From positions 83,535 to 115,534 of the forward strand of contig JBDLRP010000029.1 in NCBI GenBank assembly GCA_039799905.1: DNA of 32,000 nt, in the 5' to 3' direction. Under the pieces are notes generated by a model. That model did not search any database and was not told where the DNA came from. It saw nothing but the letters and a program-made list of their open reading frames with translations. Of this stretch, positions 9,980 through 25,118 are shown one piece after another (the first letter of the stretch is position 1; the number at the start of each line of letters is the position of its first letter). This stretch comes from Pseudomonadota bacterium. Lineage in GTDB: Bacteria; Bdellovibrionota_B; Oligoflexia; Silvanigrellales; Silvanigrellaceae. A program made the position numbers and the translations under genes.

Positions 9980-10046
9980 GTATGAAAAAACATATCCATT
10001 TAGGAGAGCTTGAGTGTGCCACAAGCTGCTGGGCAGGGCCAATACG

Positions 10047-12540: not shown

Positions 12541-13539
12541 CTACAAATCCACAACCCGGCTTTCTTGCGGCCTCAGCGGGGCGTACATCGGAGTATCGGT
12601 AGAACTGCCATCCGACTTAAATACCCGCAGCAGGTAGTTCACAGGTGGCAAGTAGCGGAGATCATAGCCACCATTTTTAACATCACCAATCGCTTCGGCC
12701 CGGTCGCATGAACTTGTGGTGTCAAACACATTCGCAACATTCACCGCTCCAGCAGGCAAATGACGCTGAAATTGCCCCACAGGCTCAAACTGCTTTACGT
12801 TCAACTTGTTGTGACGTCTTGATCCTCCCAAAATGTATGCGCAAATTCGTGTCACAGAAGGGTCGCCGACAGAGCCGTAAATACGCGCGGCAATTTTGCT
12901 TGGAACGACGTGAATCATCGGTTTCATCGCATAACGTCCGTCGGGTAGTTTAATCACAGAACGACGCAAATCGACGTGGATGATAATTTCGTTTTCGGAA
13001 TCCTCCTCAACGTCAAACTCCTCAATAATCGTGAATTCTTTTTGACCAAACGGACCGACGGGAAAATCTAGCCTGACGCGTTCGCCGGTCGACTTGCTCA
13101 CACCCTCAACCTCACTGTCCTGCGTCATAAAGAGTCTGAGACCTTCATAGGTACCTGCGGGAAGATTGGCTGCGAACGGCAAGACCTGGGTTTTTCCATC
13201 CGAGAGGGACAGCAGATCGACCTCTGTTTCTTTGTTCAAATCAAAATAGTAAAGCGACGAATCGGCGCAGGAACTGCGCGGATCTCTCAAACAGCGTCCT
13301 GTTCCCCCAGGGGCAAACGCAACAGCACGCACTGTCACATACAGGTTCGAAAAATCATCCACGGGTGCATCAGCCAGAGCCACCGTTACATTGCCCGGCT
13401 TGATAGGTTTTGTGGTTTGGGGATTGCCAGCCTGAACACGACAGCCGGATTCGCCCTGCATAAGAAACAACAGCAGCAAGAAAGTATATATTCTGCTGCG
13501 AAAGGCCGCGCCACTCTGAATTCCCAGCCGTTTTTTCAC
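12541..13539 (-). CDS. secreted DUF4382-like protein with CarboxypepD_reg-like C-terminus
   Basis: It has a signal peptide. GNVTVALADAPVDDFSNLYVTVRAVAF...DLLSLSDGKTQVL...LPAGTYEGLRLFM...IIIHVDLRRSVIKLPDGRYAMKPMIHVV matches my recollection of the DUF4382 template. GTGA overlap with the upstream gene. Confidence 0.6.
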   Translation of the reverse strand: MKKRLGIQSGAAFRSRIYTFLLLLFLMQGESGCRVQAGNPQTTKPIKPGNVTVALADAPVDDFSNLYVTVRAVAFAPGGTGRCLRDPRSSCADSSLYYFDLNKETEVDLLSLSDGKTQVLPFAANLPAGTYEGLRLFMTQDSEVEGVSKSTGERVRLDFPVGPFGQKEFTIIEEFDVEEDSENEIIIHVDLRRSVIKLPDGRYAMKPMIHVVPSKIAARIYGSVGDPSVTRICAYILGGSRRHNKLNVKQFEPVGQFQRHLPAGAVNVANVFDTTSSCDRAEAIGDVKNGGYDLRYLPPVNYLLRVFKSDGSSTDTPMYAPLRPQESRVVDL

Positions 13540-14414
13540 TTCTTACCCCCCGCCGCCTTCGTTAACGGAAAGATCTGCATGGAAATCTGGACCACCCGGC
13601 TGCCATCCTGAGTTTCAGCGGGAGGATGATCTTGATAAATCCGTTGTGAGAAGTCTTGAATCTTCTCTTTAAGTCCATCAAATTGTTCTTGAGAAAGCGT
13701 AAGCACCAGAGAGTTAATGTCCCTCTCTTCGGCCGGGCAGTCGACGACCGCAGCACGTGCCAAATCCAAAAGCGTCTGATGATAGCGAACCATCGCCACT
13801 CCGGCGACCTCGGGACCTGTCGCCACGTCATTCTGCAGCGCAACGTAACGCTTCTGACTACCATCCAGTTTCGCATAACCAATCCTGCACAGCAGCTCCA
13901 GTCCACTGTTGATTTCGTCGAGAGTAATCTTCGGACGAATCCGTTCCTGAAACCACTGCGGATCATCTGTGCTACCAGCAAAGCTCATCAACTCGAGCAA
14001 GACGGCATGTGACCAGTGACTAAAAAACTCTAACTGCCACTTATCGAGCTCGTTGACGACAAGACTTCCCTTCAACGCAACCAGTTTGCGGAAAACCGAT
14101 TCACGAATGACCGGATCGCGTTCGTAGCTGTGCTCCACCAGCAATTCGAAATACTGACGCTCACGTCCGACGAGCCCCAGGCCGGCAATCATTCTTTTGC
14201 AAGTCTTTATAGTCAGCGGACGGCGGCCACGAATGAGGGCATTCATCAGGTTGTTGCGGCCGAGGCCTGCATCGAAGGCAAAATCGAAGTATGTGTATTC
14301 GGGCTCGGCATTTTTAAGACCAACGAACAGCGCCTCCAAATACACCCGGTAATCGAGGTACTCCGATGGACGGACGACTTCGTTGCAAATCTTTTTGATT
14401 TTTGCCTTGTCCAC
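13536..14414 (-). CDS. TIGR02147-family protein (putative HTH DNA-binding)
   Basis: 292 aa. EYLDYRVYLEALFVGLKNAEPEYTYFDFAFDAGLGRNNLMNALIRGRRPLTIKTCKRMIAGLGL...ERQYFELLVEHS follows the pattern of the Fibrobacter/Bdellovibrio paralogous family TIGR02147. GTG start with AGGAGG upstream. Confidence 0.6.
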   Translation of the reverse strand: MDKAKIKKICNEVVRPSEYLDYRVYLEALFVGLKNAEPEYTYFDFAFDAGLGRNNLMNALIRGRRPLTIKTCKRMIAGLGLVGRERQYFELLVEHSYERDPVIRESVFRKLVALKGSLVVNELDKWQLEFFSHWSHAVLLELMSFAGSTDDPQWFQERIRPKITLDEINSGLELLCRIGYAKLDGSQKRYVALQNDVATGPEVAGVAMVRYHQTLLDLARAAVVDCPAEERDINSLVLTLSQEQFDGLKEKIQDFSQRIYQDHPPAETQDGSRVVQISMQIFPLTKAAGGKK

Positions 14415-14552: not shown

Positions 14553-16232
14553 CTACAGTGGCCGCGCCCCCATATATGCTCCGAGACCAGCGGAAATCAC
14601 CGAACGCTCCAATTCACTCATTCTCACCCTGACAAACTGCTCCTCAAGCATACGAGCAATTTTAACCTTGGATGCAATGTCAGATGGCTTTGCCGAGGCA
14701 TCGGCAATGGGACTCAGCAACGCTCTGAGTTCTGCCTGCAAATCGGGAGGAAGCGAACGTGCCATGGAGGGTTTGGTGTTCTTCATATGCGTTGCCGCAT
14801 TGCGTAAACCGTTCATCGCCAGCTTGAATTTCTCCCAAGCAGCGCCTCCCTTGGTGTTCAACTGCGTGATGATCTCTTTTTTTGTCAGTGCGTTTTTTGG
14901 CGCAATCTTCAATAGATTACGCCAGGCCTGCGGATTGAGAACATTGCCGACAATCGACTTGCTGGTGCTCAATGCGCGCGCGGTATGAAAAATACCCTTG
15001 CGTGCTACGTTGTAAACGTCTGCCGCAATCATCGTATAGTAGGCCGTCTGCATCGCAACTTTCAAAGGACTCATCGGCAAATCCTCGATCCAGCGACTCA
15101 GCGGAATGCTCACCGCCGTGAAGACACCGCCCGCCGCAACGGCAACTGCAAACGCACTTGAGGCCATGACTGTCGCCGCACTTCCGGCCGAGGTAATGCC
15201 CGCAGCAACAGCCGCCGAAGAGGATGCACCTGCCGTAAAATATCCGACTGTTCCTGCTGTTGCAGTCCACATGGAACCCATTGCTGCTCCAAGCGCAGGA
15301 AGCGACACGACACTGATGGCAATTGCAGCACCCACTCCGACCACAACCTTGCGCGCGCCGTCGACTTGCTGCTTCAACCAGACTTTTGAGAACTCCTCCA
15401 AGTCCAACGGACCCTTTTCCTCATCGGGAATTCCCAGCATTTGTTTTGCTATGCTCTGCTCATCGGAAGCTTCTTTACCTTCAAAAAACCGATCAGAAGG
15501 AAGAGGCGCCGGAAAGGCAACCTCATTAGCCCACGAATCCGGGCGATGGGTCACCATGACTGTGCGCGCGAGAGGCTTACGCCTGATGAAAATTGCAGAC
15601 AACTCCTGCCAGTTGCCTGTCACACGAATCGCCTGATAGAGCTTGCCGTCCGCTCCGCGGACAAAAACAAATTCAAACTGCCGGGTGTCGCCAAGGATAG
15701 TTGAACCCCAATTGGGGTCGGTTGTGAAACCTGAGCAGTCTTTTGGGTTGCTTGTACCCGTCCCATTTTGCCCCAGCAATGTATTCGGATCGCCCAAGGC
15801 AGGGGTAATCCTGCAACCAAAAAAACGCAGAGTGCTTGCGTCGTTCCCGCCTTCAGCAGCAATTTTCATCTCATTGAGCAGCGCGCCGACTTCCGAAGAC
15901 GGGAGAAACTCCTCGAACTGGCTTTTCTTTTGCCGCACCTGAACTTTGACCTTGCCGTTGCGCGCCCCCTCCAAATTTACCGCAAGCATATGCATCGCAG
16001 AACAGTCGGCCTTCAACTGATCTTCCGTATCAGGATCCAGCAGGCCAGCTTCATCTTCCGGTGAGCAGGCCTCACTGATTTTTTTCATCGTCTCGGGATC
16101 CAGGTTGTCGCGATCTTCAATACCATACGAACGGCTGTTCGACTTCTGCTTGATGCATCCCGACAGAGTGCCTGCAAGCACTGCAGACGTTGCAACACAA
16201 ATGAGAGCTCTTCTCCATATATGAAAGCTCAT
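14553..16232 (-). CDS. hypothetical polytopic lipoprotein, last gene of the mot-like block
   Basis: 559 aa with a canonical lipobox (AVLAGTLSG|C). Domain order: a roughly 290-aa soluble domain, a Gly/Ala/Ser-rich hydrophobic stretch (VVVGVGAAIAISVVSLPALGAAMG...AFAVAVAAGGVFTAVSIPL) and a roughly 180-aa helical C-terminal domain. GAGGAGG SD. Confidence 0.65.
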   Translation of the reverse strand: MSFHIWRRALICVATSAVLAGTLSGCIKQKSNSRSYGIEDRDNLDPETMKKISEACSPEDEAGLLDPDTEDQLKADCSAMHMLAVNLEGARNGKVKVQVRQKKSQFEEFLPSSEVGALLNEMKIAAEGGNDASTLRFFGCRITPALGDPNTLLGQNGTGTSNPKDCSGFTTDPNWGSTILGDTRQFEFVFVRGADGKLYQAIRVTGNWQELSAIFIRRKPLARTVMVTHRPDSWANEVAFPAPLPSDRFFEGKEASDEQSIAKQMLGIPDEEKGPLDLEEFSKVWLKQQVDGARKVVVGVGAAIAISVVSLPALGAAMGSMWTATAGTVGYFTAGASSSAAVAAGITSAGSAATVMASSAFAVAVAAGGVFTAVSIPLSRWIEDLPMSPLKVAMQTAYYTMIAADVYNVARKGIFHTARALSTSKSIVGNVLNPQAWRNLLKIAPKNALTKKEIITQLNTKGGAAWEKFKLAMNGLRNAATHMKNTKPSMARSLPPDLQAELRALLSPIADASAKPSDIASKVKIARMLEEQFVRVRMSELERSVISAGLGAYMGARPL

Positions 16233-16278
16233 CTTGCCTCCTCATTCTGCAGTCCCTGCAGAAAATCAGCCCATGCCC

Positions 16279-18825
16279 TCATGCGACAACGGGGCTTGAA
16301 ATTTTAAAGCGCCTACTCATGTCTTTGATCGCGGTATCAGCCTCACTTGGCGAAACACGCGGGTACATCACTTCATTTATCTCGCTCAGATTGATTAATC
16401 CGCTCGCAGCAAAAGACCTGATTTTCGACAACACCTGCATCTCTGCCAGACGGAATGACTCACTGTCCAACCCGCGGATGTTTGAAGCGCTCTCGTTCCA
16501 GTCGTCGGCAATCTCATCGGGAGCTTTGCGCAGAACAAGTTGTCTTATTTTGTCTCGTGTGCCGGCAAGGAATGTCACCATCACCTGAGGTTCGAGTGCC
16601 AGGAATATTTCCAAAAGAAGCCCGTCGCTCAAATAGGCAAGGGTTTCCACACTGACAAAGCGGCTTCTCACCTGACGAGCAAGTTCTGGATTGGTGCGAT
16701 CCAGATTCTCAAGCATTTCAAGCTGGGAATCGCGTTCGCTCCGTTCCACAAGATCGATGATTACATCAGCGCCGCCAAGCATTTCTCCTCCGGCTGCTCC
16801 CATTTTTTCAATCTTTCTCTTGAGTGCCATAGCTACATTGAACAGGTATTCGCGCGGCAGCGTTTCCTTGATGCAGAGCTCGCGCAAGAGTGCGGACTTT
16901 AGACTGCCTTCAAACAACTCAAACACAGCCCTGCGCTTGTCTGTCGGTAATTGAGTCAGCACAACAGCCTGCGACCGCGCACTCTCATCGCAAATCAAAT
17001 CATAAATCTGTCTTCCTGAGAACGATTTCAAGAAGTCAAATGTATCCTGAGCACGTTGAGTCATCTGCCTGATTTTTCCGGCAGTCAGCTTGAGTTTGAG
17101 ACTTCTCAAAACCGAAAGCTGTTCACTGTCGCCGACAATTGGAGCGTTCACATGAATGTATTCAGCGAGCAGGGCGACTTCTTTTTTTACGTCATCATCG
17201 CCCAGCAAATCAAAGACCATTATCTCGCCAAGCACGGATACACATTTAGCCGAGAATTCAATTCCATCTTCCCTAAGAATGCGCGAAAAGACATCTCGTG
17301 CAATCTTCGGCTGAGAAATAAACATCTGAGTCAGCTCATCGCGCAGTGATTGGATATTCATGCGCTGGGCAACTTCATCGTTGATTCCACCGGCAGGAAT
17401 CACAACGGCACGCGGGCGAATCGGAAGTGCTGCAGGAACAGTTGTTACCGGAGGGCTTGCCCCAAATGCGGACTGACCAATCTCTGTGGCAGCAGGTATG
17501 GCAACATCATCTCTGAAGTCCGCCTGCGGAGCGTGAACACCACGCCCCTCGGAAATGAGATGCTGTACCTGTTTGCTGCTCAAAACATAACGGAGCCCAA
17601 GCGCTCCAACCAACAGAAGAACGGCAAAGACGCCTGCAAACAAAAGGACCCTGTCTTTTGTCCAAAAGTCCTGAAGTCCGTTCTCGCTGAGCGTTTTTTG
17701 GGTATCCGACAACTCCTTGGTCTGTGAGGACTCCACAGACTGCGAAGAATTGCTCTTCTCCGAAAGTGACTCTCTGTTCCGCTCGCGCTCCTTCTCACTT
17801 TGCCTTTCCCGCTCACTCTCGCGGCTGATACTGTCGCGCTCGCGGATTACTTCTTTTGTATTTGCGAATTCGCGGAATATTCTCAGTGAACGGCCCAATC
17901 TTTCCAGACCCCAAGGATCGTTGCGCAATTCGTCGGAATCCTTTTGCAACTCGGAGGCAGCCTTTGGCATTGAGGTCAGTTTGACGTTCAAGATTCCCTG
18001 ACCATAGTTGTCGAGGTGATCACGCAAGAGATTTTCAATCTGCAGCCGGCGGTTGTCTTCCATCTCGGATGCAAGAGTCAGACTCGCAGTAACACCCGAA
18101 ACCACGAGCGCATGCTTGCTTTCACGAATGACAACAGCACGTCGCATCAGTGATGACTGGGCGTCCTCAAGAGGAATCCGCACCGTTTTAACCTCAAGCG
18201 TCTGCAATCTGCATTCAAGCGGACAAAAATCAGATAAAATTCTTTCAATGGAACTCTTCACTAAGCTGACTGCCTCCGATTTAGCCTCTGCCTCTGCCCG
18301 GATGACGTGAGGAGGGTCTGGAAGTGCGGCATTTGTGAATTCAATTTCTAACGGAACACCATAGCGTCGTGACGCTCGGAGCAGGACATCGCGTATCCGC
18401 TCGATATTGCTCTTTCCCAGTCTGTTATCAATCAAAACCTCGGCAACCGCACTGCTCACCAAAAAAGTTCTTGGTACGACTGTTGCGCTTTCGAAACCAA
18501 GTGAAGCCGAATTTGTGTCAAAGAGCTCGCGGCTTTCAACATCCACACCCAAAATCGTACAACCATCCGGACAATACTTCGTCACGTCCGACTGGAGTTT
18601 TGTTCGAATGCGCTGAATTGTTTCTTCGTCGAATCTGAGCTTTTCAGGGTCGGCGGGGGCCATGGATTGGAACGCCTGAATTTGCTGCGATGCAAAAGCG
18701 GTTTGATAGAGCGAAAGTTGCGTCATGAGGGCAACAAGCGAGGCACAAAAAAAGCTAGCCACGGAGAGTGTAGAACTCCTCCCCATCACTTTCGCCTTTT
18801 TATATGCAACTCGACAAATCATCAC
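16279..18825 (-). CDS. bitopic membrane protein: periplasmic repeat domain + TM + complete cytoplasmic FliG-like module (FliF-topology/FliG fusion)
   Basis: 848 aa. TM1/signal is aa 18-45 and TM2 is aa 393-415. Residues ~500-815 align by eye with FliG N/M/C: DESARSQAVVLTQLPTDKRRAVFELF; GGADVIIDLVERSERDSQLEMLENLDRTNPELARQVRSRFVSVETL; LSDGLLLEIFLALEPQVMVTFLAGTRDKIRQLVL...FRLAEMQVLSKIRSFAASGLINL. The start (GTG 18825 / ATG 18822) overlaps the motB stop as GTGA. Confidence 0.8.
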   Translation of the reverse strand: MMICRVAYKKAKVMGRSSTLSVASFFCASLVALMTQLSLYQTAFASQQIQAFQSMAPADPEKLRFDEETIQRIRTKLQSDVTKYCPDGCTILGVDVESRELFDTNSASLGFESATVVPRTFLVSSAVAEVLIDNRLGKSNIERIRDVLLRASRRYGVPLEIEFTNAALPDPPHVIRAEAEAKSEAVSLVKSSIERILSDFCPLECRLQTLEVKTVRIPLEDAQSSLMRRAVVIRESKHALVVSGVTASLTLASEMEDNRRLQIENLLRDHLDNYGQGILNVKLTSMPKAASELQKDSDELRNDPWGLERLGRSLRIFREFANTKEVIRERDSISRESERERQSEKERERNRESLSEKSNSSQSVESSQTKELSDTQKTLSENGLQDFWTKDRVLLFAGVFAVLLLVGALGLRYVLSSKQVQHLISEGRGVHAPQADFRDDVAIPAATEIGQSAFGASPPVTTVPAALPIRPRAVVIPAGGINDEVAQRMNIQSLRDELTQMFISQPKIARDVFSRILREDGIEFSAKCVSVLGEIMVFDLLGDDDVKKEVALLAEYIHVNAPIVGDSEQLSVLRSLKLKLTAGKIRQMTQRAQDTFDFLKSFSGRQIYDLICDESARSQAVVLTQLPTDKRRAVFELFEGSLKSALLRELCIKETLPREYLFNVAMALKRKIEKMGAAGGEMLGGADVIIDLVERSERDSQLEMLENLDRTNPELARQVRSRFVSVETLAYLSDGLLLEIFLALEPQVMVTFLAGTRDKIRQLVLRKAPDEIADDWNESASNIRGLDSESFRLAEMQVLSKIRSFAASGLINLSEINEVMYPRVSPSEADTAIKDMSRRFKISSPVVA

Positions 18826-19478
18826 TGATAAACCCTTATAACAACCCTTCTGTTTGCCGCGCGTGCCTGTTCAAGTGCATCGCCCGCTTTTCCACTGATG
18901 GAAATTTTGGGCCTCGAAGAACCAAATCCTGCAACGCTCATCCTTTCCTGCGGGACCTTGAGTTCACGCATTTTGTTCAGCAGTGCGACTCCGCGCGCGC
19001 TGCTGAGCGCCCAATTCACCTCATCATTCCCGACATCGTCAGTATGTCCCTCAAAACTGAGGAAATATTTGCGATCTGTCTTTTGGAGAATCTGCAAAAT
19101 TGGCATTGCTTCCTTTGCCGCAAAGTCACTTAACTCATCGCTTCCCTGACGAAACAGAACACCACCTAAAAACTCAACCATCAGACCTGACATTCCCAGC
19201 TCGGTGACGACCGAGCTCTGCAAGCCCCTGTTGGCAATCTCGAAATCAATCTGTTTTTTCAATTCATCAAGACTGTCGGTCCGCTGGCGGGTCATCACCT
19301 GTGATACGACATCAAATTTCTGCGCGCTGACCTGCGACATCGACAGCATCAACACGAAGAGTGCGAGCATATTTGTTGTCAGGTCGGCATATGAGGTCAG
19401 CCACAATGAGTCTTTGTTTTTCTTTTTGCTGCGCTTTGAAATTCCGGCGACAGAATTGAAGAATGATTCCTGAGTCAT
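18822..19478 (-). CDS. motB: MotB-type stator protein (OmpA-like peptidoglycan-binding C-terminus)
   Basis: 218 aa. The TM carries the conserved Asp context WLTSYADLTTNMLALFVLM. The C-terminus is FEGHTDDVGNDEVNWALSSARGVALLNKM...AGFGSSRP. A GGGAGGG SD lies inside the motA 3' end. Confidence 0.85.
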   Translation of the reverse strand: MTQESFFNSVAGISKRSKKKNKDSLWLTSYADLTTNMLALFVLMLSMSQVSAQKFDVVSQVMTRQRTDSLDELKKQIDFEIANRGLQSSVVTELGMSGLMVEFLGGVLFRQGSDELSDFAAKEAMPILQILQKTDRKYFLSFEGHTDDVGNDEVNWALSSARGVALLNKMRELKVPQERMSVAGFGSSRPKISISGKAGDALEQARAANRRVVIRVYQ

Positions 19479-19484
19479 TTTTCG

Positions 19485-20315
19485 CTACCCTCCCTGAGAC
19501 GCGCGGGTGCGCGGCGGGAGATCGCGATTGCCTTCACTCTGGGAGAGACCGGCCGCAGTGCGACCCTGTGTTTGTTCCTGCGAGTAGGTGCTCAAAACAT
19601 CTCTCAGGTGTGCTTGGGATTTCTTTTCCTTGAGCAGGAGGACTCCCTCAAGAATCATCAAATCAAGCTGCAAAGTCTTTTCCGCATAAATCGCGATTTT
19701 TTCAGAGATGGGTGTGTACACAACGGTACCGAGAATTATTCCATAGAGGGTTGTCAGCAGGGCTATCGCCATAGATGGGCCGAGTTTGGCTGGCTCCGAC
19801 ATGTGTGAGAGCATTTGGACAAGTCCAACGATCGTTCCGAGAAGTCCCATGCCGGGACACAGTTTTCCCAAACTTTCAAAAAGACTCACCGCATGGGAAA
19901 ACTGAGTTTGCTTGGTATTTATTTTTGCAGTCAGGTTGTGCCTGATTTCGTCGGCTGTAAAGCTCGATAGAATGAGCGTCACGCCATCCCTGAAGAGCTG
20001 ATTGCTGATTTGCGGTTTGTATTTTGCGAGAATTCCTATTCCCTCTGTCCGCACTGCGTAACTGAGCGTCGACAGCTGATTTGAAATTTGGTTCATTTCT
20101 TTTTTTTGATTCAGGAACGCAAGACTCAACAGTGTGCGAAGCCCTGAAAAGAAATCGATGAAACTGTGCGACATAAGCATTACGGCAATCGGCGCGACTC
20201 CGAGCAGGACGGCCGAGGCCGGCTCCCAGAAGCCTTCGAAATTTTCGCCGCCATGAAAAATCAGATACCAAAGTGACCACGCAAAGGCTGTAAGGCCGAC
20301 AAGAATGCTGATCAT
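19485..20315 (-). CDS. motA: MotA-type stator protein (4 TM, large TM2-TM3 cytoplasmic loop)
   Basis: 276 aa. TM3 LCPGMGLLGTIVGLVQML and TM4 ALLTTLYGIILGTVVYTPIS retain the two conserved Pro residues. The loop is AVRTEGIGILAKY.... ATGA overlap with the upstream gene. Confidence 0.85.
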   Translation of the reverse strand: MISILVGLTAFAWSLWYLIFHGGENFEGFWEPASAVLLGVAPIAVMLMSHSFIDFFSGLRTLLSLAFLNQKKEMNQISNQLSTLSYAVRTEGIGILAKYKPQISNQLFRDGVTLILSSFTADEIRHNLTAKINTKQTQFSHAVSLFESLGKLCPGMGLLGTIVGLVQMLSHMSEPAKLGPSMAIALLTTLYGIILGTVVYTPISEKIAIYAEKTLQLDLMILEGVLLLKEKKSQAHLRDVLSTYSQEQTQGRTAAGLSQSEGNRDLPPRTRASQGG

Positions 20316-21088
20316 GGCACCCTCCCGTCGACTGCCTTTGTGCTCTGCGCAGGTTGATCGATCCTCTTTTGCCGGAGACCTTCGCGGCTTGAAATAACTC
20401 TTCGCAGTTGCTCGATCTGCGCGAGCAGCCGAGGATTCGGCTCGAGGTCAAACGCCTTTTCATACGCGGAAAGCGACAAATCTGACTGACTCAGTCTGAG
20501 ATGAAGAGTCCCCTTCATGGTCCAAAGCAATGCTGATTTGGAGAAATGCAGCAGCAGTTCGTTTGTCTCAACAAGAGCATCCTCGTAACGTTTTGATGAA
20601 AACAGCTGACGTATTTTTTTTGTTGATTCAGTGAAGCTCGGGCTGAGCGGTCTTCCGTCCTCCTCGCTGACTCCCAAAACCCGATCAAAATCTCCAAGCC
20701 TTTTCTCGAATTCACCGGCACCGCTCACGCCTGCGATTTCGGCGTCCGTTCTTTGCAAGCGAGCTCTCTCGCGGGATTGTGCAATGGGATCGCCTGTCAC
20801 ATCTCCCGGCTCAAGTCCCATCACAGATGCGGGTAGTTTGACCTCAGTAAGATCCGAACCTCGTTCTCCGGTGAGCACCTGCTCGACAGTTTCCCGTTGA
20901 GCACGTTCGCTTGCTTCCCGCGAGGCAGGAGGGGGTGCAATTCGAAATTCCGTTGCTGGATTTTTGTTGTCCTGCAACACGCGCTGCTGTTGCGCTGCCG
21001 GTGTTTCCGCAGGCGTCGACGTACACGAGAAATGTGCGACTCCCACAAACAGGAGGCACAGTTTAAAACTGGAGGCCGAAGGCAACAT
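20312..21088 (-). CDS. secreted TPR-repeat protein
   Basis: ATG 21088 (GGAGGA 10 nt upstream) gives the signal-like N-terminus MLPSASSFKLCLLFVGVAHFSC. The C-terminal TPR-like helices are YEDALVETNELLLHFSKSALLWTMKGTLHLRLSQSDLSLSAYEKAFDLEPNP. The track start at 21175 would overlap the upstream gene by 113 nt. Confidence 0.6.
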   Translation of the reverse strand: MLPSASSFKLCLLFVGVAHFSCTSTPAETPAAQQQRVLQDNKNPATEFRIAPPPASREASERAQRETVEQVLTGERGSDLTEVKLPASVMGLEPGDVTGDPIAQSRERARLQRTDAEIAGVSGAGEFEKRLGDFDRVLGVSEEDGRPLSPSFTESTKKIRQLFSSKRYEDALVETNELLLHFSKSALLWTMKGTLHLRLSQSDLSLSAYEKAFDLEPNPRLLAQIEQLRRVISSREGLRQKRIDQPAQSTKAVDGRVP

Positions 21089-22271
21089 CAGCAGCCAATC
21101 CTCCAGGCGTTGTGTATTTATATCGATTGCGAACACTGATGGTCGTCGGAAGGCTGTATCCAACACCGGCGTCAATTAGAAATCGCTGACCCAAACGCAT
21201 TGTTGCGCCGCCTCTCAACGAAAAGCAGGCATATCCTTTGGAGACAATCGTTCCAGCACCCAATTCCAGACCGGTGACGGTGCCATCAACGCTGGAGGAA
21301 TCCTTCGAAAAGAAGTGTCCATAAATCGCGTAAAGTCCCAAAGCTCGCGTGAAGGGGAGAATGATTTCCGTGTTGCTGCCTTCTTTGAATTCAGCACTGG
21401 AAGCAGGGTCGCCGACAATCTCCGGATAGTCGGAAATCAGCACAGATGGCGCTAAAATCCCGCTCAGTCTTGTGCCAACTTCATCCCGCCCAGCATTGAA
21501 TTTTTCAGAAAACCGCAGATTGATTCCAAGCATGTTCGCGCTGTCTTTGACATTCGGAACAAGATGCCAACCGATTGTCGTGGCAAAGAGATATTTCGAT
21601 TTTTTGGCTGTTTCGACTTCAATCTGCTGCTTGGTTTCGGAGTCGCGCTGCTCCATCTTCTGCCTGTAGATATTTTCAGTGTTGTAAAGCTTGCTCCAGA
21701 GCAACTCTTTGGACTTGGAATCGAACACATGGAATCCCAAAATCATGCTTGTTTCTTGATAAATCAGCGTCATATCAACCCAAGCTTCAACCCCGAGCTG
21801 ACTTGCGATTGCGTCCAGTTCCTGCGGATTGTTTATGGGCGTGGTCATTACCAGCCGTCCGTTTTCAACGACCGTTCGACGCACCCGACAATTGGTGCAC
21901 TGCAAAACCTTGGTGCCGCTGTGCTTGCGGAATGCATCCGAGATCTGTGTTTCAAGATAGCTCTCATATGTGCGCGGTATGCCCTCGCCCAAGGCAACAC
22001 GACGGATCGCCACGTTTCGCAGAGAATTTAGTGCTTTGGCCCGTAGATCAAATGAAAACTCGTTCACAAGATCTTGCAGAACTTCATTGAAACTCTTCAC
22101 CTGCTCGCCTTGACCTTGCGTCATCAAAGCGGCTTGTGACTTTGCGGGTGGCGATTCGACGGCAAATGCATACGTCGTCGGTGCGAGCACGACAGTGAGC
22201 GCAAACGCGTGAGCGAGCGCCCGAAAAACGAGCTGTGCTCTCCTTATTTTCTGCCGAAAAATGTCAGGCAT
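21063..22271 (-). CDS. putative outer-membrane protein: N-terminal alpha/beta domain + C-terminal beta-barrel
   Basis: 402 aa with a signal peptide (RRAQLVFRALAHAFALTVVLAPTTYAFA|VE). The C-terminal third has alternating-hydrophobicity strands and ends in ...GLAADVAFGLQF, a terminal aromatic typical of OMPs. Confidence 0.6.
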   Translation of the reverse strand: MPDIFRQKIRRAQLVFRALAHAFALTVVLAPTTYAFAVESPPAKSQAALMTQGQGEQVKSFNEVLQDLVNEFSFDLRAKALNSLRNVAIRRVALGEGIPRTYESYLETQISDAFRKHSGTKVLQCTNCRVRRTVVENGRLVMTTPINNPQELDAIASQLGVEAWVDMTLIYQETSMILGFHVFDSKSKELLWSKLYNTENIYRQKMEQRDSETKQQIEVETAKKSKYLFATTIGWHLVPNVKDSANMLGINLRFSEKFNAGRDEVGTRLSGILAPSVLISDYPEIVGDPASSAEFKEGSNTEIILPFTRALGLYAIYGHFFSKDSSSVDGTVTGLELGAGTIVSKGYACFSLRGGATMRLGQRFLIDAGVGYSLPTTISVRNRYKYTTPGGLAADVAFGLQF

Positions 22272-22272
22272 G

Positions 22273-22305
22273 AAAAAACCCCACAGAAGTCCTCGGTGGG
22301 GTTTT
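22273..22305 (-). terminator. rho-independent terminator of the 213-aa gene, abutting the next start codon
   Basis: The minus strand reads aaaaCCCCAC-cgaggacttct-GTGGGGttttttc followed by ATG (22271). Stems are 22279-22284 and 22296-22301. Confidence 0.65.
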
Positions 22306-22375
22306 CGGCTTTACTGATTCTGCGACTGATGCACTTCTTGCCGTGCTTCCAATCGTCTGACGGGACGTCCTCGCC

Positions 22376-23017
22376 TCAGAGCGAGTAGGTCAGCTTCGCA
22401 AGAGACTCTTTGCCGGTTGCGACAACGAGTTCCCAAGATTTGCGCGCTTCGTCGCCCTGAAAATCTTCGTCGTAAGTTTCGAGCAAGTCCTGAATTCCCT
22501 CTGCATCTTCAAGAAGGCTCAGGGCGTTGACAGCCGAGCGGAAATAACGCGCAGCTTCGTTCGGGTGACGCTTCACTTTGAGGCTGAGACGTCCCATTTC
22601 TTCATACCACTGCGCCTTCTCTTCGGGAGTCGCAACTTCGCCCGTCTCGCCCAGCATATATATGTAGGTGTTCAACGCACGAGTGTTGTCTTTGGAAGCC
22701 ATCAGCTCGGAAATCTTGGGCAGGAGAGTTTGAATCGTCTTGCGGGCCTTAGCTTGTTCTTTGCGTTTGTCCTCGAGGCTCTCGGATGAGTGCTTTTCGA
22801 GAATTCTCTCACAATGGGCGCGCAGTAGACGCAGGTCTTCGGGAAGAACCTGATCGCGCTCTGTTTCGAGTGTGGGGTTGATTTGGCGAAACAGAGACAA
22901 GAGTTCCGCCGGAGAAACGTGAAGGTAGCCGGCGAGAATCTGAATTGCCCACGGGCGATCGTCGGGCCAAATCCGCTCTGCACGTTCCATCTGCCGAATC
23001 AACTCATGCATATCCAT
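22376..23017 (-). CDS. hypothetical helical cytoplasmic protein
   Basis: 213-aa ORF with a GAGGAGA SD 4 nt upstream of ATG 23017 and its own terminator. No family recognised. Confidence 0.6.
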   Translation of the reverse strand: MDMHELIRQMERAERIWPDDRPWAIQILAGYLHVSPAELLSLFRQINPTLETERDQVLPEDLRLLRAHCERILEKHSSESLEDKRKEQAKARKTIQTLLPKISELMASKDNTRALNTYIYMLGETGEVATPEEKAQWYEEMGRLSLKVKRHPNEAARYFRSAVNALSLLEDAEGIQDLLETYDEDFQGDEARKSWELVVATGKESLAKLTYSL

Positions 23018-23137: not shown

Positions 23138-23884
23138 TCAATTTTGAGACCCAGTAAAATTCTTTCGAAGTCGCAGGAAAAACCTGATTAAATGGTAGCA
23201 GAGCAGCAGAAGGACCACCAGCCAAACAGCGGAAAGCGGGCCCTGATCCAAAAAACTGACTGGTTGGCTTGACAAATAATTTCTTTCCCTGTTGACTAGA
23301 CGGCCCGCTGCGAGAGCCTCACCCTCTTGAGCCGCTTTGCGCACATCCCCGAGCAGGTTGTTCCAGAAAACTTCAAACCCGGCCGAAGCGAATTCTACCG
23401 GACCATTCTGATACGCAAGCAGCTCACCGTCTCGGTCGAGCAGAAAAAAAGCCGGGTGCGCGACCACAGACAAGCGCTCACTTAGAACTCCCTGAGGATC
23501 CCAAATAATACCCTTCAGGCTCCTCAGGCCCGTCGCCCGATACTCCAAGCCCAACTCAGGAAGCGTGGGCCAATCGCTCACAACTATGCGCGCACAGACC
23601 GTTGGCGCCAACGCACCCGCGACTGGAGGATGCGCTTCCTGCAAACGCTCAAGCGCCCGGGCACCTGCACGACAATTTTCACACTCAGGCAAGGTAAAAT
23701 AGAGCGCAGTGAGGTCGGCAGGGCGCCCTCCCTCCTTGTCACAAAACAACGACTCAGGCGCAGGCGCAGCGTCGGCATCTCGCTCACCGACAACAGGGAA
23801 TTCAAAATTTGGAACGAACACCTTGCTATCGAGGGTGTGCAGTCCGGAGGCCTTGGCCATCTGAGAGAGAGTTGTTAATCCCAT
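23138..23884 (-). CDS. thioredoxin-fold (TlpA/ResA-like) protein with C-terminal TM anchor
   Basis: It has the CxxC after strand 1 (ALYFTLPECENCRAGARALERL), a cis-Pro region (VVAHPAFFLLDRDGELLAY) and a C-terminal TM (LSAVWLVVLLLLCYHLIRFFL). I chose ATG 23884 (GGAG 5 nt upstream). The longer track ORF to 24274 conflicts with a better plus-strand ORF. Confidence 0.5.
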   Translation of the reverse strand: MGLTTLSQMAKASGLHTLDSKVFVPNFEFPVVGERDADAAPAPESLFCDKEGGRPADLTALYFTLPECENCRAGARALERLQEAHPPVAGALAPTVCARIVVSDWPTLPELGLEYRATGLRSLKGIIWDPQGVLSERLSVVAHPAFFLLDRDGELLAYQNGPVEFASAGFEVFWNNLLGDVRKAAQEGEALAAGRLVNRERNYLSSQPVSFLDQGPLSAVWLVVLLLLCYHLIRFFLRLRKNFTGSQN

Positions 23885-24070
23885 ACCGTCTCCAAAATGA
23901 GACACATACCCTTCGAGGTGATGCTTTCCTGAGACACTAGCTATCCCCCCTTCTCTGAGTAATTGCAACGGATGTTCCAAATCATAGGCTCTGTCGCCGA
24001 ATTTTAAAATTGGCACGGTATTTGCTTTGAGACTTCCGAAATCGAACGCACTGTCATAGGAGAGAGAACG

Positions 24071-24325
24071 ATGGAAACACTCGTGAACACAATGAACGCT
24101 ATCCGACAGCAGGCTGCACAGAGCACTCAACCACTGAATAACAAGGTTCTCGCAGAAAATCTTTTCCGTGACCTTCGCCTTCAGGGACTGAAAGACAAAG
24201 ACATCGTCAGTCTGTCTTCCGAACTGATTGCTCAACTCACAAACGACATCAAAGTCAGAGCAGAAAAAGTTCACACCGGTGAAACTCCTGCCATCAGCTC
24301 CGAAAAGCTCACCCGCACTCGCTAA
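24071..24325 (+). CDS. small hypothetical protein (84 aa)
   Basis: AGGAG lies 8 nt upstream of ATG 24071. The composition is protein-like (METLVNTMNAIRQQAAQSTQPLNNKVLAENLFRDLRLQGLKDKDIVSLSSELIAQLTNDIK...). It overlaps only the Cys/Phe-rich, poor-looking N-terminal extension of the antisense ORF. Confidence 0.5.
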   Translation: METLVNTMNAIRQQAAQSTQPLNNKVLAENLFRDLRLQGLKDKDIVSLSSELIAQLTNDIKVRAEKVHTGETPAISSEKLTRTR

Positions 24326-24387: not shown

Positions 24388-24801
24388 TTAGCCTGCCTTG
24401 TGCAGGGGTGTGACCTTAGCCACAACCTTGCGAGCTTTGCGAGCTGCAGGCTTCTTGGCTTTCTTTGCCTTCTTCTTAGCAGCTGGCTTCTTAGCGGCAG
24501 CCTTCTTAGCTGTAGCCTTCTTAGCCTTCTTCTTGGCAGCTGGCTTCTTGGTAACAGCCTTCTTGGCGGTTGCCTTCTTAGCCTTGCGCTTAGCTGGCTT
24601 CTTAGCAGCAGCCTTCTTAGCGGTAGCTTTCTTGGCAGTAGCCTTCTTAGCCTTCTTCTTCGCAGCTGGCTTCTTAGCCTTTGCAGCAACTTTCTTCTTC
24701 GCCTTGCCGCCTACTTTTTTCTTAGCTGCGCGGACTGTCTTCTTCTTCTTTGCACGCTTCGGTTTTGCGTGCGATACTTCAGCTTTAGTTTCAACTGTCA
24801 T
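24388..24801 (-). CDS. histone-H1-like Lys/Ala-repeat basic protein
   Basis: 137 aa consisting almost entirely of KKPAAKKKAKKATAKKA-type repeats. The minus strand is chosen because the terminator lies 28 nt downstream and AAGGGA lies upstream of the ATG. The other three overlapping frames give Leu/Ser/Phe or Arg/Leu nonsense repeats. Confidence 0.7.
   Translation of the reverse strand: MTVETKAEVSHAKPKRAKKKKTVRAAKKKVGGKAKKKVAAKAKKPAAKKKAKKATAKKATAKKAAAKKPAKRKAKKATAKKAVTKKPAAKKKAKKATAKKAAAKKPAAKKKAKKAKKPAARKARKVVAKVTPLHKAG
24440..24740. repeat. imperfect tandem coding repeats (GCCTTCTTAGC-type units) inside the H1-like gene
   Basis: Directly visible reiteration of ggcttcttagc / gccttcttagc / gccttcttggc. 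At the protein level there are about five KKPA-initiated units of 10-24 aa. Confidence 0.6.
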
Positions 24802-25118
24802 TTAGACGTTCCCTTCTTCAGACTGCGACGCTCGGAGACAAAGCTTGTGTCCCCACGCCTGAATTGTGAAACCAATTCACTCGACCGCAACGTCTCCCGA
24901 CGTGACCAGCGACAGCGTCTTCCCGACGCAGAGCACCGCACATTCATGCGATACCAATTTTTCGTCATGTCTCAGTATAACTTGAGTCGAAGTTCAGCTT
25001 TTTTTAGCACGTCACTTTTTTGGAGCTTCTGGTGAACTTTTTGACACAACACACAACTTTTTCACCTCTCATCGCACAACTCGGATCGCAGAGTTTTGAG
25101 CTCCAGGCGCGAACAAAT

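What the first reader, a model, noticed from the sequence alone, without database searches (positions are those of the whole stretch)
14553..22310. Orphan MotAB stator operon wired to a membrane-tethered FliG-like protein, an OM barrel, a TPR protein and a polytopic lipoprotein: candidate non-flagellar ion-driven trans-envelope machine
Six minus-strand genes are packed with coupling signatures that I checked base by base. The OM-barrel gene stop (21063) overlaps the TPR gene ATG (21088) by 26 nt, with GGAGGA 10 nt upstream. The TPR stop and motA start share ATGA (20312-20315). The motA stop to motB ATG gap is 6 nt, with GGGAGGG upstream. The motB stop and the next start share GTGA (18822-18825). 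A 46-nt gap with GAGGAGG then precedes the lipoprotein gene. MotA is of the flagellar type: 4 TM, a roughly 90-aa cytoplasmic loop, and both conserved TM3/TM4 prolines. MotB keeps the ion-carrying Asp (SYADLTT) and an OmpA-like peptidoglycan anchor. The next gene encodes a bitopic membrane protein whose cytoplasmic half is a complete FliG-like module. No fliF, fliH/I/J, fliM/N, flh, flg or flagellin gene lies anywhere in the 32 kb. Known 5:2 ion-driven stators have dedicated partners: MotAB-FliG, ExbBD-TonB, TolQR-TolA, AglRQS-Glt, GldLM and ZorAB. A flagellar-type stator genetically welded to a membrane-anchored FliG-like protein plus OM, periplasmic and lipoprotein partners matches none of the arrangements I know. 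It would amount to a compact envelope-spanning rotor-stator device.
Basis: partly seen in the sequence, partly recalled or inferred. Interest (0 to 1): 0.85.

Follow-up and report, generated by a model that had tools for sequence, protein, structure and literature searches.

The report
Compact flagellar-type motor with one-protein rotor
This bacterial gene cluster pairs a flagellar-type ion-driven stator (MotAB) with one membrane protein that combines the two flagellar rotor parts (FliF-like and FliG-like); the pairing recurs in distant bacteria and has not been described, so it may be a stripped-down rotary motor that works without a flagellum.

Summary
In detail: six tightly coupled minus-strand genes, a PomA-like MotA, a MotB with plug, Asp32 and an OmpA domain, and an 848-aa membrane protein whose C-terminal half passes the Pfam FliG_M and FliG_C cut-offs.

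New here:
- Its periplasmic half is two duplicated alpha-beta-beta-alpha-beta units that match the FliF MS ring by predicted fold only. The protein is therefore a natural FliF-like/FliG-like fusion.
- It belongs to a large superfamily of 545-1009 aa proteins in Oligoflexia and other lineages.
- motAB is adjacent in every Silvanigrellales-type locus and in three very distant subgroups. A TPR lipoprotein usually accompanies it, and in the window clade and L028 a putative outer-membrane protein does too.
- Interface charges covary. Where the FliG module has Glu in place of canonical Arg281, its own MotA has Lys in place of canonical Glu98. Where Arg is kept, Glu is kept.

Corrections:
- The 559-aa lipoprotein is lineage-specific.
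- The barrel is unverified.
- Oligoflexales-type members are not next to motAB.
- Independence from a flagellum is likely but unproven.

The closest precedent is the shorter Chlamydia FliF-FliG fusion, which has no stator. Best reading: a dedicated rotor-stator module of unknown output.

The parts
16279..18825 (-). 848-aa FliF-like/FliG-like fusion protein, the putative single-polypeptide rotor. Order of parts: signal or TM helix (residues 14-45), two RBM-like periplasmic units, a conserved helix DPWGLERLG... (303-330), an acidic Ser-rich disordered spacer, TM2 (~387-415), a disordered linker, then the FliG-like module (483-836).
   Evidence: Pfam FliG_M and FliG_C above cut-off. AF2 model. 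Foldseek matches to FliG (6e-8) and to the FliF MS ring (5e-4). PDB profile hit to A. aeolicus FliG at 9.8e-16.
18322..18654 (-). Periplasmic unit 1 (residues ~58-168): alpha-beta-beta-alpha-beta, with invariant Cys85/Cys89 (YCPDGC).
   Evidence: AF2 secondary structure at pLDDT 83-91. Invariant columns in the family alignments. hhalign unit 1 against unit 2: probability 98.2%, E 5.9e-14.
17968..18318 (-). Periplasmic unit 2 (residues ~170-286): alpha-beta-beta-alpha-beta, with invariant Cys201/Cys205 (FCPLEC).
   Evidence: Fold-level matches to FliF 6scn, 8z5v and the Shigella T3SS inner-membrane ring 6rwx. No sequence-level match to YscJ_FliF or to any PDB chain.
16318..17379 (-). Cytoplasmic FliG-like module (residues 483-836). 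Foldseek aligns 332 columns to full-length FliG 3hjl.
16456..16530 (-). Torque-helix equivalent (residues 766-790, KAPDEIADDWNESASNIRGLD). Substitutions relative to E. coli FliG: K264 to A754, R281 to E771, D288 to E778, D289 to S779, R297 to D787.
   Evidence: MAFFT alignment with E. coli and A. aeolicus FliG, HMMER alignment, numbering.
18822..19478 (-). MotB: plug, TM helix with Asp32, OmpA-like peptidoglycan-binding domain.
   Evidence: MotB_plug 1.6e-15 and OmpA 5.3e-13. Closest NCBIfam models MotD/MotB, below their cut-offs. D32.
19485..20315 (-). MotA of a distinct PomA-like subfamily, dedicated to the fusion protein.
   Evidence: MotA_ExbB 2.8e-21. PomA model 1.1e-41, below its cut-off. 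Profile hit to the PomA structure 8bri at 2e-46 over residues 3-246. Subfamily gap from 233 to 118 bits.
20013..20060 (-). MotA cytoplasmic loop at the rotor interface (residues 86-101, YAVRTEGIGILAKYKP). R89 corresponds to E. coli R90 / PomA R88. The acidic patch (E. coli E98, PomA E96/97/99) is replaced by K98 and K100.
20312..21088 (-). 258-aa periplasmic protein with a lipobox-like Cys and a C-terminal TPR (residues 186-218). Translationally coupled to motA, and conserved next to the module in distant lineages.
   Evidence: Weak TPR hits, E 0.003. Homologs directly upstream of motA in L025, L026, L028 (E 4e-6) and L029 (TPR_2 2.6e-5), and a TPR protein before the fusion in L030. Conserved Cys after a hydrophobic stretch.
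21063..22271 (-). 402-aa secreted protein: signal peptide, conserved N-terminal alpha/beta domain, and a Gly/aromatic-rich C-terminal half ending in Phe. Putative outer-membrane protein; the barrel is not verified.
   Evidence: No Pfam or PDB relative. Orthologs in all clade-S loci and in L026 (34% identity); a distant counterpart in L028 (17% identity; weak FlgO hit at E 0.015 in that member only). The crude beta-amphipathicity test was inconclusive.
14553..16232 (-). 559-aa lipoprotein (lipobox ...SGC|IKQ) with Gly/Ala-rich hydrophobic segments. A lineage-specific accessory, not part of the conserved core.
   Evidence: Lipobox conserved in orthologs. Present only in the closer Silvanigrellales-type loci; absent from L003/L017, L016, L025 and L026.

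Best explanation
The cluster encodes a dedicated rotor-stator pair built from flagellar parts but organised as a self-contained envelope module.

Stator. MotA and MotB form a PomAB-like ion-driven unit, presumably 5:2 as in solved homologs. It is anchored to peptidoglycan through the OmpA-like domain of MotB.

Rotor. The partner is the 848-aa protein. Its two duplicated RBM-like periplasmic units would oligomerise into a ring at the inner membrane, as FliF and SctJ do. Its cytoplasmic FliG-like modules would then form a torque ring under the membrane. The MotA cytoplasmic loop pushes on the FliG_C-like helix through a charge-swapped version of the canonical interface: MotA K98/K100 against E771, and MotA R89 against E778. 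Such a swap would insulate the pair from any canonical FliG/MotAB in the same cell.

Partners and output. A TPR lipoprotein, a putative outer-membrane protein and, in this lineage only, a further lipoprotein are the likely periplasmic and outer-membrane partners. What the ring turns or energises is unknown.

Shown: domain identities, predicted folds, gene coupling, conservation of adjacency, covariation of charges. Inferred: 5:2 stoichiometry, ring formation, rotation, independence from a flagellum, and the role of the envelope partners.
For: - FliG_M and FliG_C pass the Pfam cut-offs. Foldseek places full-length FliG first (6e-8) and the FliF MS ring next (5e-4, 4.5e-3).
- The two alpha-beta-beta-alpha-beta units are modelled at pLDDT 80-90 and are an internal duplication (hhalign 98%, E 6e-14).
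- MotA aligns over its whole length to PomA structures (2e-46). It belongs to a separate subfamily of about 80 clusters; the next-best hits drop from 233 to 118 bits.
- motB lies directly upstream of the fusion in all 17 clade-S loci and in more divergent members whose flanking genes are unrelated (L025, L026, the P0343 contig).
- Three very distant subgroups also keep motAB adjacent: L028, L029 (69% GC) and L030. A TPR protein accompanies them.
- Covariation. The fusion has R or E/D at the E. coli R281 position, and its own MotA has E or K/R at the E98 position. The pairs are R/E in L028 and L030 and in canonical motors, R (shifted by one position)/E in L029, and E or D with K/R in the window, L026 and L025. 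The unpaired alignments agree: none of the 27 aligned subfamily MotAs has the acidic patch, and every aligned clade-S fusion has E or D there.
- No T3SS, rod, hook or switch gene appears in the window or in about 423 kb of related loci.
- The same protein family is present in Oligoflexus tunisiensis, which was described as non-motile with no flagella seen (PMC4179278).
- Engineered FliF-FliG fusions assemble rings (PDB 8z4d; PMC11481574).
Against: - No experiment supports any of this, and no multimer model could be run.
- The periplasmic half has no sequence similarity to FliF/SctJ. Its FliF-likeness rests on one AF2 model built from 25 sequences and on Foldseek E-values of 5e-4 to 0.03.
- It lacks the third RBM and beta-collar of FliF.
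- A long disordered spacer lies between the periplasmic units and TM2, which seems poorly suited to transmitting torque.
- Oligoflexales-type members are not next to motAB, and no matching MotA from O. tunisiensis appeared among the 120 listed hits.
- Cultured Silvanigrellaceae are motile and carry full flagellar gene sets (PMC7386786, PMC12321486), so a flagellar role is not excluded.
- The covariation rests on six paired loci plus unpaired family alignments, and one case (L029) needs a one-residue register shift.
Confidence: 0.6

Rival explanations
1. It is part of the organism's real flagellar apparatus. This would be an extra stator set with its periplasmic and outer-membrane scaffold (as PflA/PflB, MotX/MotY or FlgO/P/T are in other bacteria). 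The fusion protein would then serve as an alternative or additional rotor or scaffold ring around a basal body encoded elsewhere.
For: - MotA and MotB are of the flagellar type, with plug, Asp32 and a PomA-like loop.
- Cultured members of the same family are motile and have flagellar genes (PMC7386786, PMC12321486).
- TPR and outer-membrane-associated proteins next to motAB recall known stator scaffolds.
- One distant homolog of the 402-aa protein gives a weak FlgO hit (E 0.015).
- No output component of its own has been identified.
Against: - No flagellar gene is linked in any of about 30 loci.
- The fusion carries its own membrane anchor and ring-type domains, so it cannot sit on FliF the way FliG does.
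- The charge swap would weaken interaction with canonical partners.
- The family persists in O. tunisiensis, where no flagella were seen (PMC4179278).
- At the same backbone site, a low-GC relative of the Silvanigrella type lacks the cluster altogether.
- The FlgO hit appears in 1 of 12 members only.
Confidence: 0.2
2. It is an energy-transducing envelope system of the Tol-Pal or Ton type and not a rotor. MotAB would use ion flow to drive conformational cycles in the membrane-anchored partner, which passes work to the TPR lipoprotein and the outer-membrane protein (envelope integrity, division, transport or surface-protein movement). No complete ring would turn.
For: - The overall parts list resembles tolQ-tolR-tolA-tolB-pal-cpoB (my own knowledge): an inner-membrane motor, a periplasm-spanning partner, an outer-membrane protein and a TPR protein.
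- The fusion has a long disordered periplasmic spacer.
- Envelope lipoproteins are conserved alongside it.
- In L030 the module is followed by MoxR-DUF58-VWA genes.
Against: - The MotA relationship to TolQ/ExbB is remote (2.4e-5 and 0.013, against 1e-41 for PomA).
- The conserved and covarying contact is the cytoplasmic FliG torque helix, which is not how TolA or TonB engage their motors.
- The periplasmic units have the ring-building topology.
Confidence: 0.15
3. It is a decaying flagellar remnant or an anti-phage Zorya-like system with no rotor function.
For: MotB matches ZorB models in PADLOC (5e-16). Flagellar relic genes are known in non-flagellated bacteria (PMC9927559).
Against: - MotA does not match ZorA, and no ZorC/D-like gene is present.
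- All genes are intact and translationally coupled.
- The family has hundreds of members under purifying selection. Many columns are invariant, including interface residues.
- The module is conserved across very divergent lineages.
Confidence: 0.03

Closest known systems
Flagellar rotor-stator core (MotAB/PomAB stator acting on FliG carried by the FliF MS ring)
   Same: Homologous MotA (PomA-like, full-length alignment), MotB (plug, Asp32, OmpA domain) and FliG middle and C-terminal domains. RBM-type periplasmic units flanked by membrane helices, as in FliF. An electrostatic MotA-loop/FliG-helix interface appears to be retained.
   Different: Rotor functions sit in one polypeptide. There are only two RBM-like units, with no RBM3/beta-collar and no sequence similarity to FliF. 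No export gate, rod, hook, filament, FliM/FliN or chemotaxis genes are linked. Interface charges are swapped (R281 to E, E98 to K). The EHPQR FliM-binding motif is degenerate. Scores lie far below the equivalog cut-offs (FliG 42.9 against 226.7; PomA 142.9 against 341).
Chlamydiaceae natural FliF-FliG fusion (Bergeron 2016, PMC4768692)
   Same: A natural single polypeptide with a signal sequence, two membrane helices, two RBM-type periplasmic domains and a cytosolic FliG-derived domain, in a lineage that does not build flagella.
   Different: The chlamydial protein is about 330 aa and keeps only a FliG-M-like region. It has no torque-generating C domain, and Chlamydia has no MotAB. It is thought to work with the injectisome. 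Here the whole FliG module is present and is welded to a dedicated stator. I did not test homology between the two fusions.
Engineered FliF-FliG fusions (Salmonella deletion fusions; Vibrio FliFG, PDB 8z4d/8z4g, PMC11481574)
   Same: They show that a covalent FliF-FliG chain can still assemble rings. 8z4d is a sequence-level hit of the family profile (2.6e-6).
   Different: They are laboratory constructs of full-length FliF plus FliG inside a complete flagellum.
SctJ/PrgK/EscJ inner-membrane ring of the injectisome
   Same: Two tandem RBM domains followed by a C-terminal TM helix. Weak fold matches to 6rwx and 8axn (E 0.03-0.06).
   Different: SctJ has no cytoplasmic FliG module and no stator, and it is not a rotor.
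Tol-Pal and ExbBD-TonB (other 5:2 motor systems with envelope partners)
   Same: An inner-membrane ion-driven motor is encoded together with periplasmic, TPR and outer-membrane partners.
   Different: The stator here is of the flagellar type, not the TolQ/ExbB type. The partner is engaged through a cytoplasmic FliG domain and not through a TM helix hairpin.
Zorya ZorAB
   Same: MotB-like subunit (PADLOC ZorB 5e-16).
   Different: No ZorA match, no long ZorA tail, no ZorC/D.

Membership tests
FliG (flagellar motor switch protein) | FliG_M and FliG_C domains detectable above the curated Pfam cut-offs | tested here: met
   FliG_M 32.4 bits (cut-off 25) and FliG_C 31.6 bits (cut-off 23.3). Family profile against A. 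aeolicus FliG: 9.8e-16.
FliG (flagellar motor switch protein) | Equivalog-level score (TIGR00207 at least 226.7 bits) and a soluble protein of about 330 aa | tested here: not met
   42.9 bits. The protein is an 848-aa membrane protein with two hydrophobic helices.
FliG (flagellar motor switch protein) | Conserved torque-helix charges (E. coli K264, R281, D288, D289, R297) | tested here: not met
   A754, E771, E778, S779 and D787. All three basic residues are lost and two become acidic.
FliG (flagellar motor switch protein) | EHPQR motif that binds FliM | tested here: not met
   The window has E614-S-A-R617. Oligoflexales-type members keep E-x-P-Q. No fliM/fliN lies nearby.
FliG (flagellar motor switch protein) | N-terminal domain that binds the FliF C-terminus | tested here: inconclusive
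   No FliG_N Pfam hit. Foldseek does align 332 columns to full-length FliG 3hjl, and residues 483-590 are helical.
FliF / YscJ_FliF (MS-ring and SctJ family) | Sequence match to YscJ_FliF (PF01514) or to solved FliF/SctJ chains | tested here: not met
   No such hit at E up to 10 for 14 diverse periplasmic halves or for their profile.
FliF / YscJ_FliF (MS-ring and SctJ family) | Periplasmic RBM folds (alpha-beta-beta-alpha-beta) flanked by two membrane helices | tested here: met
   AF2 model: H60-84 E89-101 E120-133 H138-155 E159-166, then H172-200 E205-218 E238-252 H257-272 E276-284, at pLDDT 80-90. Foldseek: FliF 6scn_A 5.3e-4, 8z5v_A 4.5e-3. This is a prediction only.
FliF / YscJ_FliF (MS-ring and SctJ family) | Third RBM with beta-collar that houses the export gate and rod | tested here: not met
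   Only two units precede the conserved helix and TM2.
FliF / YscJ_FliF (MS-ring and SctJ family) | Assembly into a closed ring | not testable with these tools
   No multimer prediction or experiment was available.
Flagellar stator MotA/PomA (FIT clade of PMC12505986) | MotA_ExbB domain, four TM helices, a large cytoplasmic loop, and the conserved TM3/TM4 prolines | tested here: met
   Pfam 2.8e-21. Full-length alignment to PomA 8bri, residues 3-246. P154 and P202.
Flagellar stator MotA/PomA (FIT clade of PMC12505986) | Curated equivalog score (PomA at least 341, MotA at least 340) | tested here: not met
   142.9 and 116.8 bits. The subfamily is distinct, about 30% identical to the nearest PomA/MotA.
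Flagellar stator MotA/PomA (FIT clade of PMC12505986) | Rotor-facing charges R90 and E98 (E. coli numbering) | tested here: not met
   R89 is kept. The E98 position is replaced by K98/K100, and no acidic residue occurs there in any of the 27 subfamily members.
MotB | Plug, TM helix with the ion-binding Asp, OmpA-like peptidoglycan-binding domain | tested here: met
   MotB_plug 56.8 bits, OmpA 49.6 bits. D32. Equivalog cut-offs are not reached.
Zorya (ZorAB plus ZorC/D/E) | ZorA with a long tail, plus ZorC/D or other effector genes | tested here: not met
   Only the generic ZorB/MotB match appears; no ZorA or effector hit.
Tol-Pal / Ton systems | TolQ/ExbB-type A subunit with a TolA/TonB partner | tested here: not met
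   TolQ 2.4e-5 and ExbB 0.013, against PomA 1e-41. No TolA/TonB-like gene is present.
Chlamydiaceae FliF-FliG fusion | Homology to the chlamydial protein (as opposed to an independent fusion) | not tested
   I had no chlamydial sequence to compare. The architecture is taken from PMC4768692 only.

The most novel reading that the evidence does not exclude
A widespread, flagellum-independent rotary machine. A ring of a single FliF-like/FliG-like polypeptide would be spun by its own co-evolved MotAB, with no type III export apparatus, rod or filament. It would be coupled instead to a TPR lipoprotein and an outer-membrane protein. It could be a surviving relative of the pre-flagellar rotor, or a stripped-down derivative re-used for an unknown envelope task. 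It is present in Oligoflexia, in a 69%-GC lineage and in other uncultured lineages.
Probability: 0.4. Interest if true: 0.92.

Novelty: new variant of a known kind. Interest (0 to 1): 0.8.

Why it matters
FliG is the only known partner of flagellar-type stators, and it is known to generate torque only inside the complete flagellum. A natural module of just MotAB and a one-protein FliF/FliG-like ring would matter in three ways.
1. It would be the smallest known flagellar-type rotor-stator pair, and so an attractive target for structure and single-molecule work.
2. It would bear directly on how the flagellar motor arose: whether a rotor and stator could exist before, or without, the export apparatus and filament.
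3. It would add a new member, with a new output, to the short list of 5:2 motor systems (Mot, Ton, Tol, Agl/Glt, GldLM, Zorya).

The charge swap at the interface is also a natural experiment. It parallels classical charge-reversal genetics on MotA R90/E98 and FliG R281/D288/D289. It suggests a way two motors can coexist in one membrane without cross-talk.

The family is annotated only as 'FliG C-terminal domain-containing protein', 'hypothetical protein' or, wrongly, 'flagellar motor switch protein FliG'.

Tried and rejected
1. **g213 as a seventh component.** The ORF at 22376-23017 is 98-99% identical across loci where its neighbours are 55-78% identical, with third-position identity near 50%. 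The metagenome scan rejected it as a dedicated part. Homologs at 78-84% identity sit in loci without any motor gene; L038 has about 29% GC and the order g213-165aa-832aa-SmpB-PilD. A terminator-like hairpin separates it from the 402-aa gene. Its single-sequence AF2 model was poor (pLDDT 57) and gave no fold match. It has no Pfam or PDB relative.
2. **Structure of the 402-aa protein.** The PDB profile search found nothing. The FlgO lead appears in 1 of 12 members only. A crude beta-amphipathicity test was inconclusive.
3. **Sequence-level link of the periplasmic half to FliF/SctJ.** None was found.
4. **Zorya.** Rejected.
6. **Distant-subgroup alignment.** An alignment of the distant subgroups (A6, 23% mean identity) was too diverse to use for a collection scan.
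7. **Canonical fliF/fliG in the same genomes.** No tool allowed a whole-genome scan. All I could show is that they are absent from the window and from about 423 kb of fetched loci.
8. **Literature.** Searches for a prior description found only engineered fusions and the Chlamydia case.
9. **Note on my notebook.** It first recorded the MotA lysines as K94/K96. The correct numbers are K98 and K100.


Full report
**Observation.** All the junctions are as described:
- a 26-nt overlap of the 402-aa gene with the next ATG, behind GGAGGA;
- ATGA shared by the TPR gene stop and the motA start, behind GGGAGGG;
- a 6-nt gap between motA and motB, behind a second GGGAGGG;
- GTGA shared by the motB stop and the start of the 848-aa gene;
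- a 46-nt gap with GAGGAGG before the lipoprotein gene.

No convincing internal terminator was found. A strong one lies upstream at 24361-24341. MotA is closest to the PomA/MotP/MotA models (1e-41 to 1e-33), although below their equivalog cut-offs. It is far from TolQ/ExbB and keeps both conserved prolines (P154, P202). MotB has the plug, Asp32 and an OmpA domain. The rest of the 32 kb holds housekeeping genes, a prepilin peptidase and a PilZ protein, with no flagellar gene.

**The 848-aa protein is a FliF-like/FliG-like fusion.** Residues 605-677 and 706-813 pass the Pfam cut-offs for FliG_M and FliG_C. A profile of the family hits A. aeolicus FliG at 9.8e-16. An AlphaFold2 model built from 25 family members gives this order of parts:
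1. an N-terminal hydrophobic helix;
2. two alpha-beta-beta-alpha-beta units (residues about 58-168 and 170-286, pLDDT 80-90);
3. a long conserved helix (DPWGLERLG...);
4. an acidic, Ser-rich disordered spacer;
5. a TM helix (about 387-415);
6. a disordered linker;
7. a helical module (483-836).

Foldseek against the PDB puts FliG first (3hjl, 6e-8, 332 aligned columns, i.e. the whole of FliG). The FliF MS ring follows (6scn_A 5.3e-4, 8z5v_A 4.5e-3), with weak matches to the Shigella injectisome inner ring. The two periplasmic units are an internal duplication (hhalign probability 98.2%, E 5.9e-14). Each carries an invariant Cys-x3-Cys.

At the sequence level the periplasmic half matches neither YscJ_FliF nor any solved chain. 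'FliF-like' is therefore a statement about predicted fold and topology only. There is no third RBM or beta-collar.

**Distribution.** The word-indexed search found only 29 close clusters. An exhaustive profile search of 1.84 billion representatives found 1546 proteins at E up to 1e-3 and 87 at E up to 1e-30. Most of the 87 are 700-1000 aa and match over both halves. Genome hits are Silvanigrellales/Silvanigrellaceae MAGs. A second search from a central member named Oligoflexus tunisiensis, Pseudobacteriovorax antillogorgiicola, and Oligoflexales and Pseudobdellovibrionaceae MAGs. The only source names given are 'FliG C-terminal domain-containing protein', 'hypothetical protein' and 'flagellar motor switch protein FliG'. 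A further tier of 545-730 aa proteins has the same plan with one RBM-like unit, often with the same C-P-x-x-C motif. It includes sequences of 69% GC and of 32-41% GC. The best-scoring canonical FliGs come from unrelated phyla (Paenarthrobacter, Thermocrinis), so the module is not a recent copy of a nearby flagellar FliG.

**Linkage to motAB.** In all 17 Silvanigrellales-type loci, motB lies directly upstream of the fusion wherever the sequence is present. The order 402-aa gene, TPR gene, motA, motB, fusion is kept. Those genomes are broadly syntenic, so this alone is weak evidence. Three further lines make it strong.
- The window MotA defines a separate subfamily of about 80 clusters (44-95% identity, 233-571 bits), and the next hits fall to 118 bits. 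The most divergent members I checked still sit in X-Y-motA-motB-fusion arrangements with unrelated flanking genes. These are L025, L026, and the P0343 contig with 213-401-272-MotA-MotB-841 aa. Homologs of the TPR protein are recognisable in L025 and L026, and a homolog of the 402-aa protein in L026.
- Three very distant subgroups keep motAB adjacent:
  - L028: fusion, 369 aa, 320-aa TPR, MotA, MotB;
  - L029: 486 aa, 262-aa TPR, MotA, MotB, fusion;
  - L030: TPR, fusion, MotA, MotB, followed by MoxR/DUF58/VWA genes.
- The 559-aa lipoprotein is present only in the closer relatives, so it is an accessory.

Against a universal linkage, the Oligoflexales-type genes stand alone (L022, L023, L024). 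For L027, Pfam shows no MotA in the 8 kb downstream, and the contig starts just before the gene, so the upstream side is unknown.

**Covariation at the interface.** In canonical motors, MotA R90 and E98 face FliG D288/D289 and R281 (PMC12505986). In the window protein the torque helix reads KAPDEIADDWNESASNIRGLD. The equivalents are R281 to E771, D288 to E778, D289 to S779, R297 to D787 and K264 to A754. In the window MotA, R89 is kept. The acidic patch (E98 in E. coli; E96/E97/E99 in PomA) aligns to AKYK, with K98 and K100. None of the 27 subfamily members has an acidic residue there, and nearly all have Lys or Arg.

| Protein pair | Residue at the FliG R281 position | MotA patch (E98 / E96-99 equivalent) |
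|---|---|---|
| E. coli FliG / MotA | Arg | Glu |
| A. aeolicus FliG; Vibrio PomA (reference sequences, not a cognate pair) | Arg (FliG) | Glu (PomA) |
| L028 | Arg | Glu |
| L030 | Arg | Glu |
| L029 | Arg, shifted by one position | Glu |
| Window | Glu | Lys |
| L026 | Glu | Lys |
| L025 | Asp | Lys/Arg |

(Data.) The other pair, basic in MotA and acidic in the FliG module, is kept in all the pairs compared. This is the pattern expected if each FliG-like module contacts its neighbouring MotA at the canonical site. I regard it as the strongest argument for a working rotor-stator pair. The FliM-binding EHPQR motif is degenerate in the window clade (E-S-A-R) and partly kept in Oligoflexales-type members (E-x-P-Q).

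**Accessory proteins.**
- *TPR protein.* It has a Cys after a hydrophobic leader in almost every lineage, so it looks like a lipoprotein. It carries one C-terminal TPR pair.
- *402-aa protein.* It has a signal peptide, a well-conserved N-terminal domain and a Gly/aromatic-rich C-terminal half ending in Phe. It has no Pfam or PDB relative, and I could not verify a barrel.
- *559-aa protein.* It has a clear lipobox and Gly/Ala-rich hydrophobic stretches.

**Flagellar or not.** I could not scan the host genomes. The indirect evidence favours independence:
- no flagellar gene in the window or in about 423 kb of related loci;
- a rotor that brings its own membrane ring and lacks the FliF collar;
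- swapped interface charges;
- presence of the family in O. tunisiensis, described as non-motile with no flagella seen (PMC4179278, PMC5154148);
- absence of the cluster from the equivalent backbone site (g213 ... SmpB-PilD-UvrD) in a 29%-GC relative of the cultured Silvanigrella/Fluviispira type. The cultured members of that group are flagellated (PMC7386786, PMC12321486).

None of this excludes a role at a flagellar base.

**Mechanism proposed.** MotA5B2-type units, fixed to peptidoglycan by MotB, use ion flow through Asp32 to turn MotA. The MotA loop (R89, K98, K100) engages the acidic torque helix (E778, E771, D787) of FliG-like modules. These modules are held in a ring by the RBM-like periplasmic units of the same polypeptide, so the ring turns in the inner membrane. 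The TPR lipoprotein and the 402-aa protein are candidate periplasmic and outer-membrane partners, either as stator scaffold or as output. The steps actually shown are homology, predicted fold, gene coupling, conserved adjacency and covariation. Stoichiometry, ring formation, rotation and output are inferred.

**Comparison with what is known.** The closest described object is the Chlamydiaceae FliF-FliG fusion: about 330 aa, two RBMs, a FliG-M region only, and no stator (PMC4768692). Engineered FliF-FliG fusions show that such chains can assemble rings (PMC11481574; PDB 8z4d). The recent survey of MotAB evolution describes flagellar and generic ion-transporter clades but no FliG-linked non-flagellar system (PMC12505986). 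Full-text searches found no description of this module. PADLOC gives only the generic MotB/ZorB similarity.

**Verdict.** The partner is a FliF/FliG-type single-chain rotor. The conserved core is TPR protein + MotA + MotB + fusion, joined in the window clade and L028 by the 402-aa protein. The module is widespread and carries a co-evolved interface. Function and independence from flagella remain open.

Noticed in passing
window 22376-23017 (-): A 213-aa cytoplasmic, all-helical protein with no known family is 98-99% identical across genomes whose neighbouring proteins are only 55-78% identical. Third-codon positions are about 50% identical, so purifying selection is extreme. It also occurs at 78-84% identity in low-GC relatives that lack the motor cluster, so it is a backbone gene of unknown but evidently critical function.
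   Followed up: yes
window ~22272-22310 (-): A terminator-like hairpin (CCCCAC ... GTGGGG followed by TTTTTT) ends one base before the ATG of the 402-aa gene. It leaves no room for a Shine-Dalgarno sequence. This suggests read-through or attenuation control of the motor operon from the g213 transcript.
   Followed up: no
window 25020-25673 (+): A 217-aa PilZ-domain protein keeps its position about 2-3 kb upstream of the cluster in all Silvanigrellales-type loci, including the distant L016 (38% identity). PilZ proteins such as YcgR and FlgX bind flagellar stators, so it is a candidate c-di-GMP brake or stabiliser for this MotAB. General synteny could equally explain the position.
   Followed up: partly
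window 24388-24801 (-): A 137-aa Lys/Ala-rich protein made of AKKA/KKPAAKK repeats (histone H1-like composition), followed by the strongest intrinsic terminator of the region (24361-24341).
   Followed up: no
L022 8875-9864, L023 8837-9841 (DsbA-like); window 23138-24274 (-): Thioredoxin/DsbA-like genes lie near the fusion gene in several lineages. Each periplasmic unit of the fusion has an invariant Cys-x3-Cys pair, so disulfide formation may matter for assembly.
   Followed up: no
L022 14752-20988, L023 14750-20481; window 9101-10141 (-); L030 16593-17039: Type IV pilus genes lie within a few kb of the fusion gene in several unrelated contexts: pilMNOPQ in L022 and L023, the prepilin peptidase gene in the window, and a pilin-like gene in L030. 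This may be coincidence or a functional hint.
   Followed up: no
L030 13496-16573: In the 2.17-Mb contig, the TPR-fusion-MotA-MotB module is followed directly by MoxR AAA+, DUF58, DUF4381 and VWA genes, which resembles a Bat/aerotolerance operon.
   Followed up: no
L038 10296-12794 (-): At the backbone site where the window carries the motor cluster, a low-GC relative has an 832-aa ORF with no Pfam match. tblastn at E up to 1e-4 found no similarity to the fusion protein.
   Followed up: partly
window 12541-14414 (-): DUF4423 and DUF4382 genes plus an M10 metalloprotease follow the lipoprotein gene. They are syntenic only within the closer relatives.
   Followed up: partly
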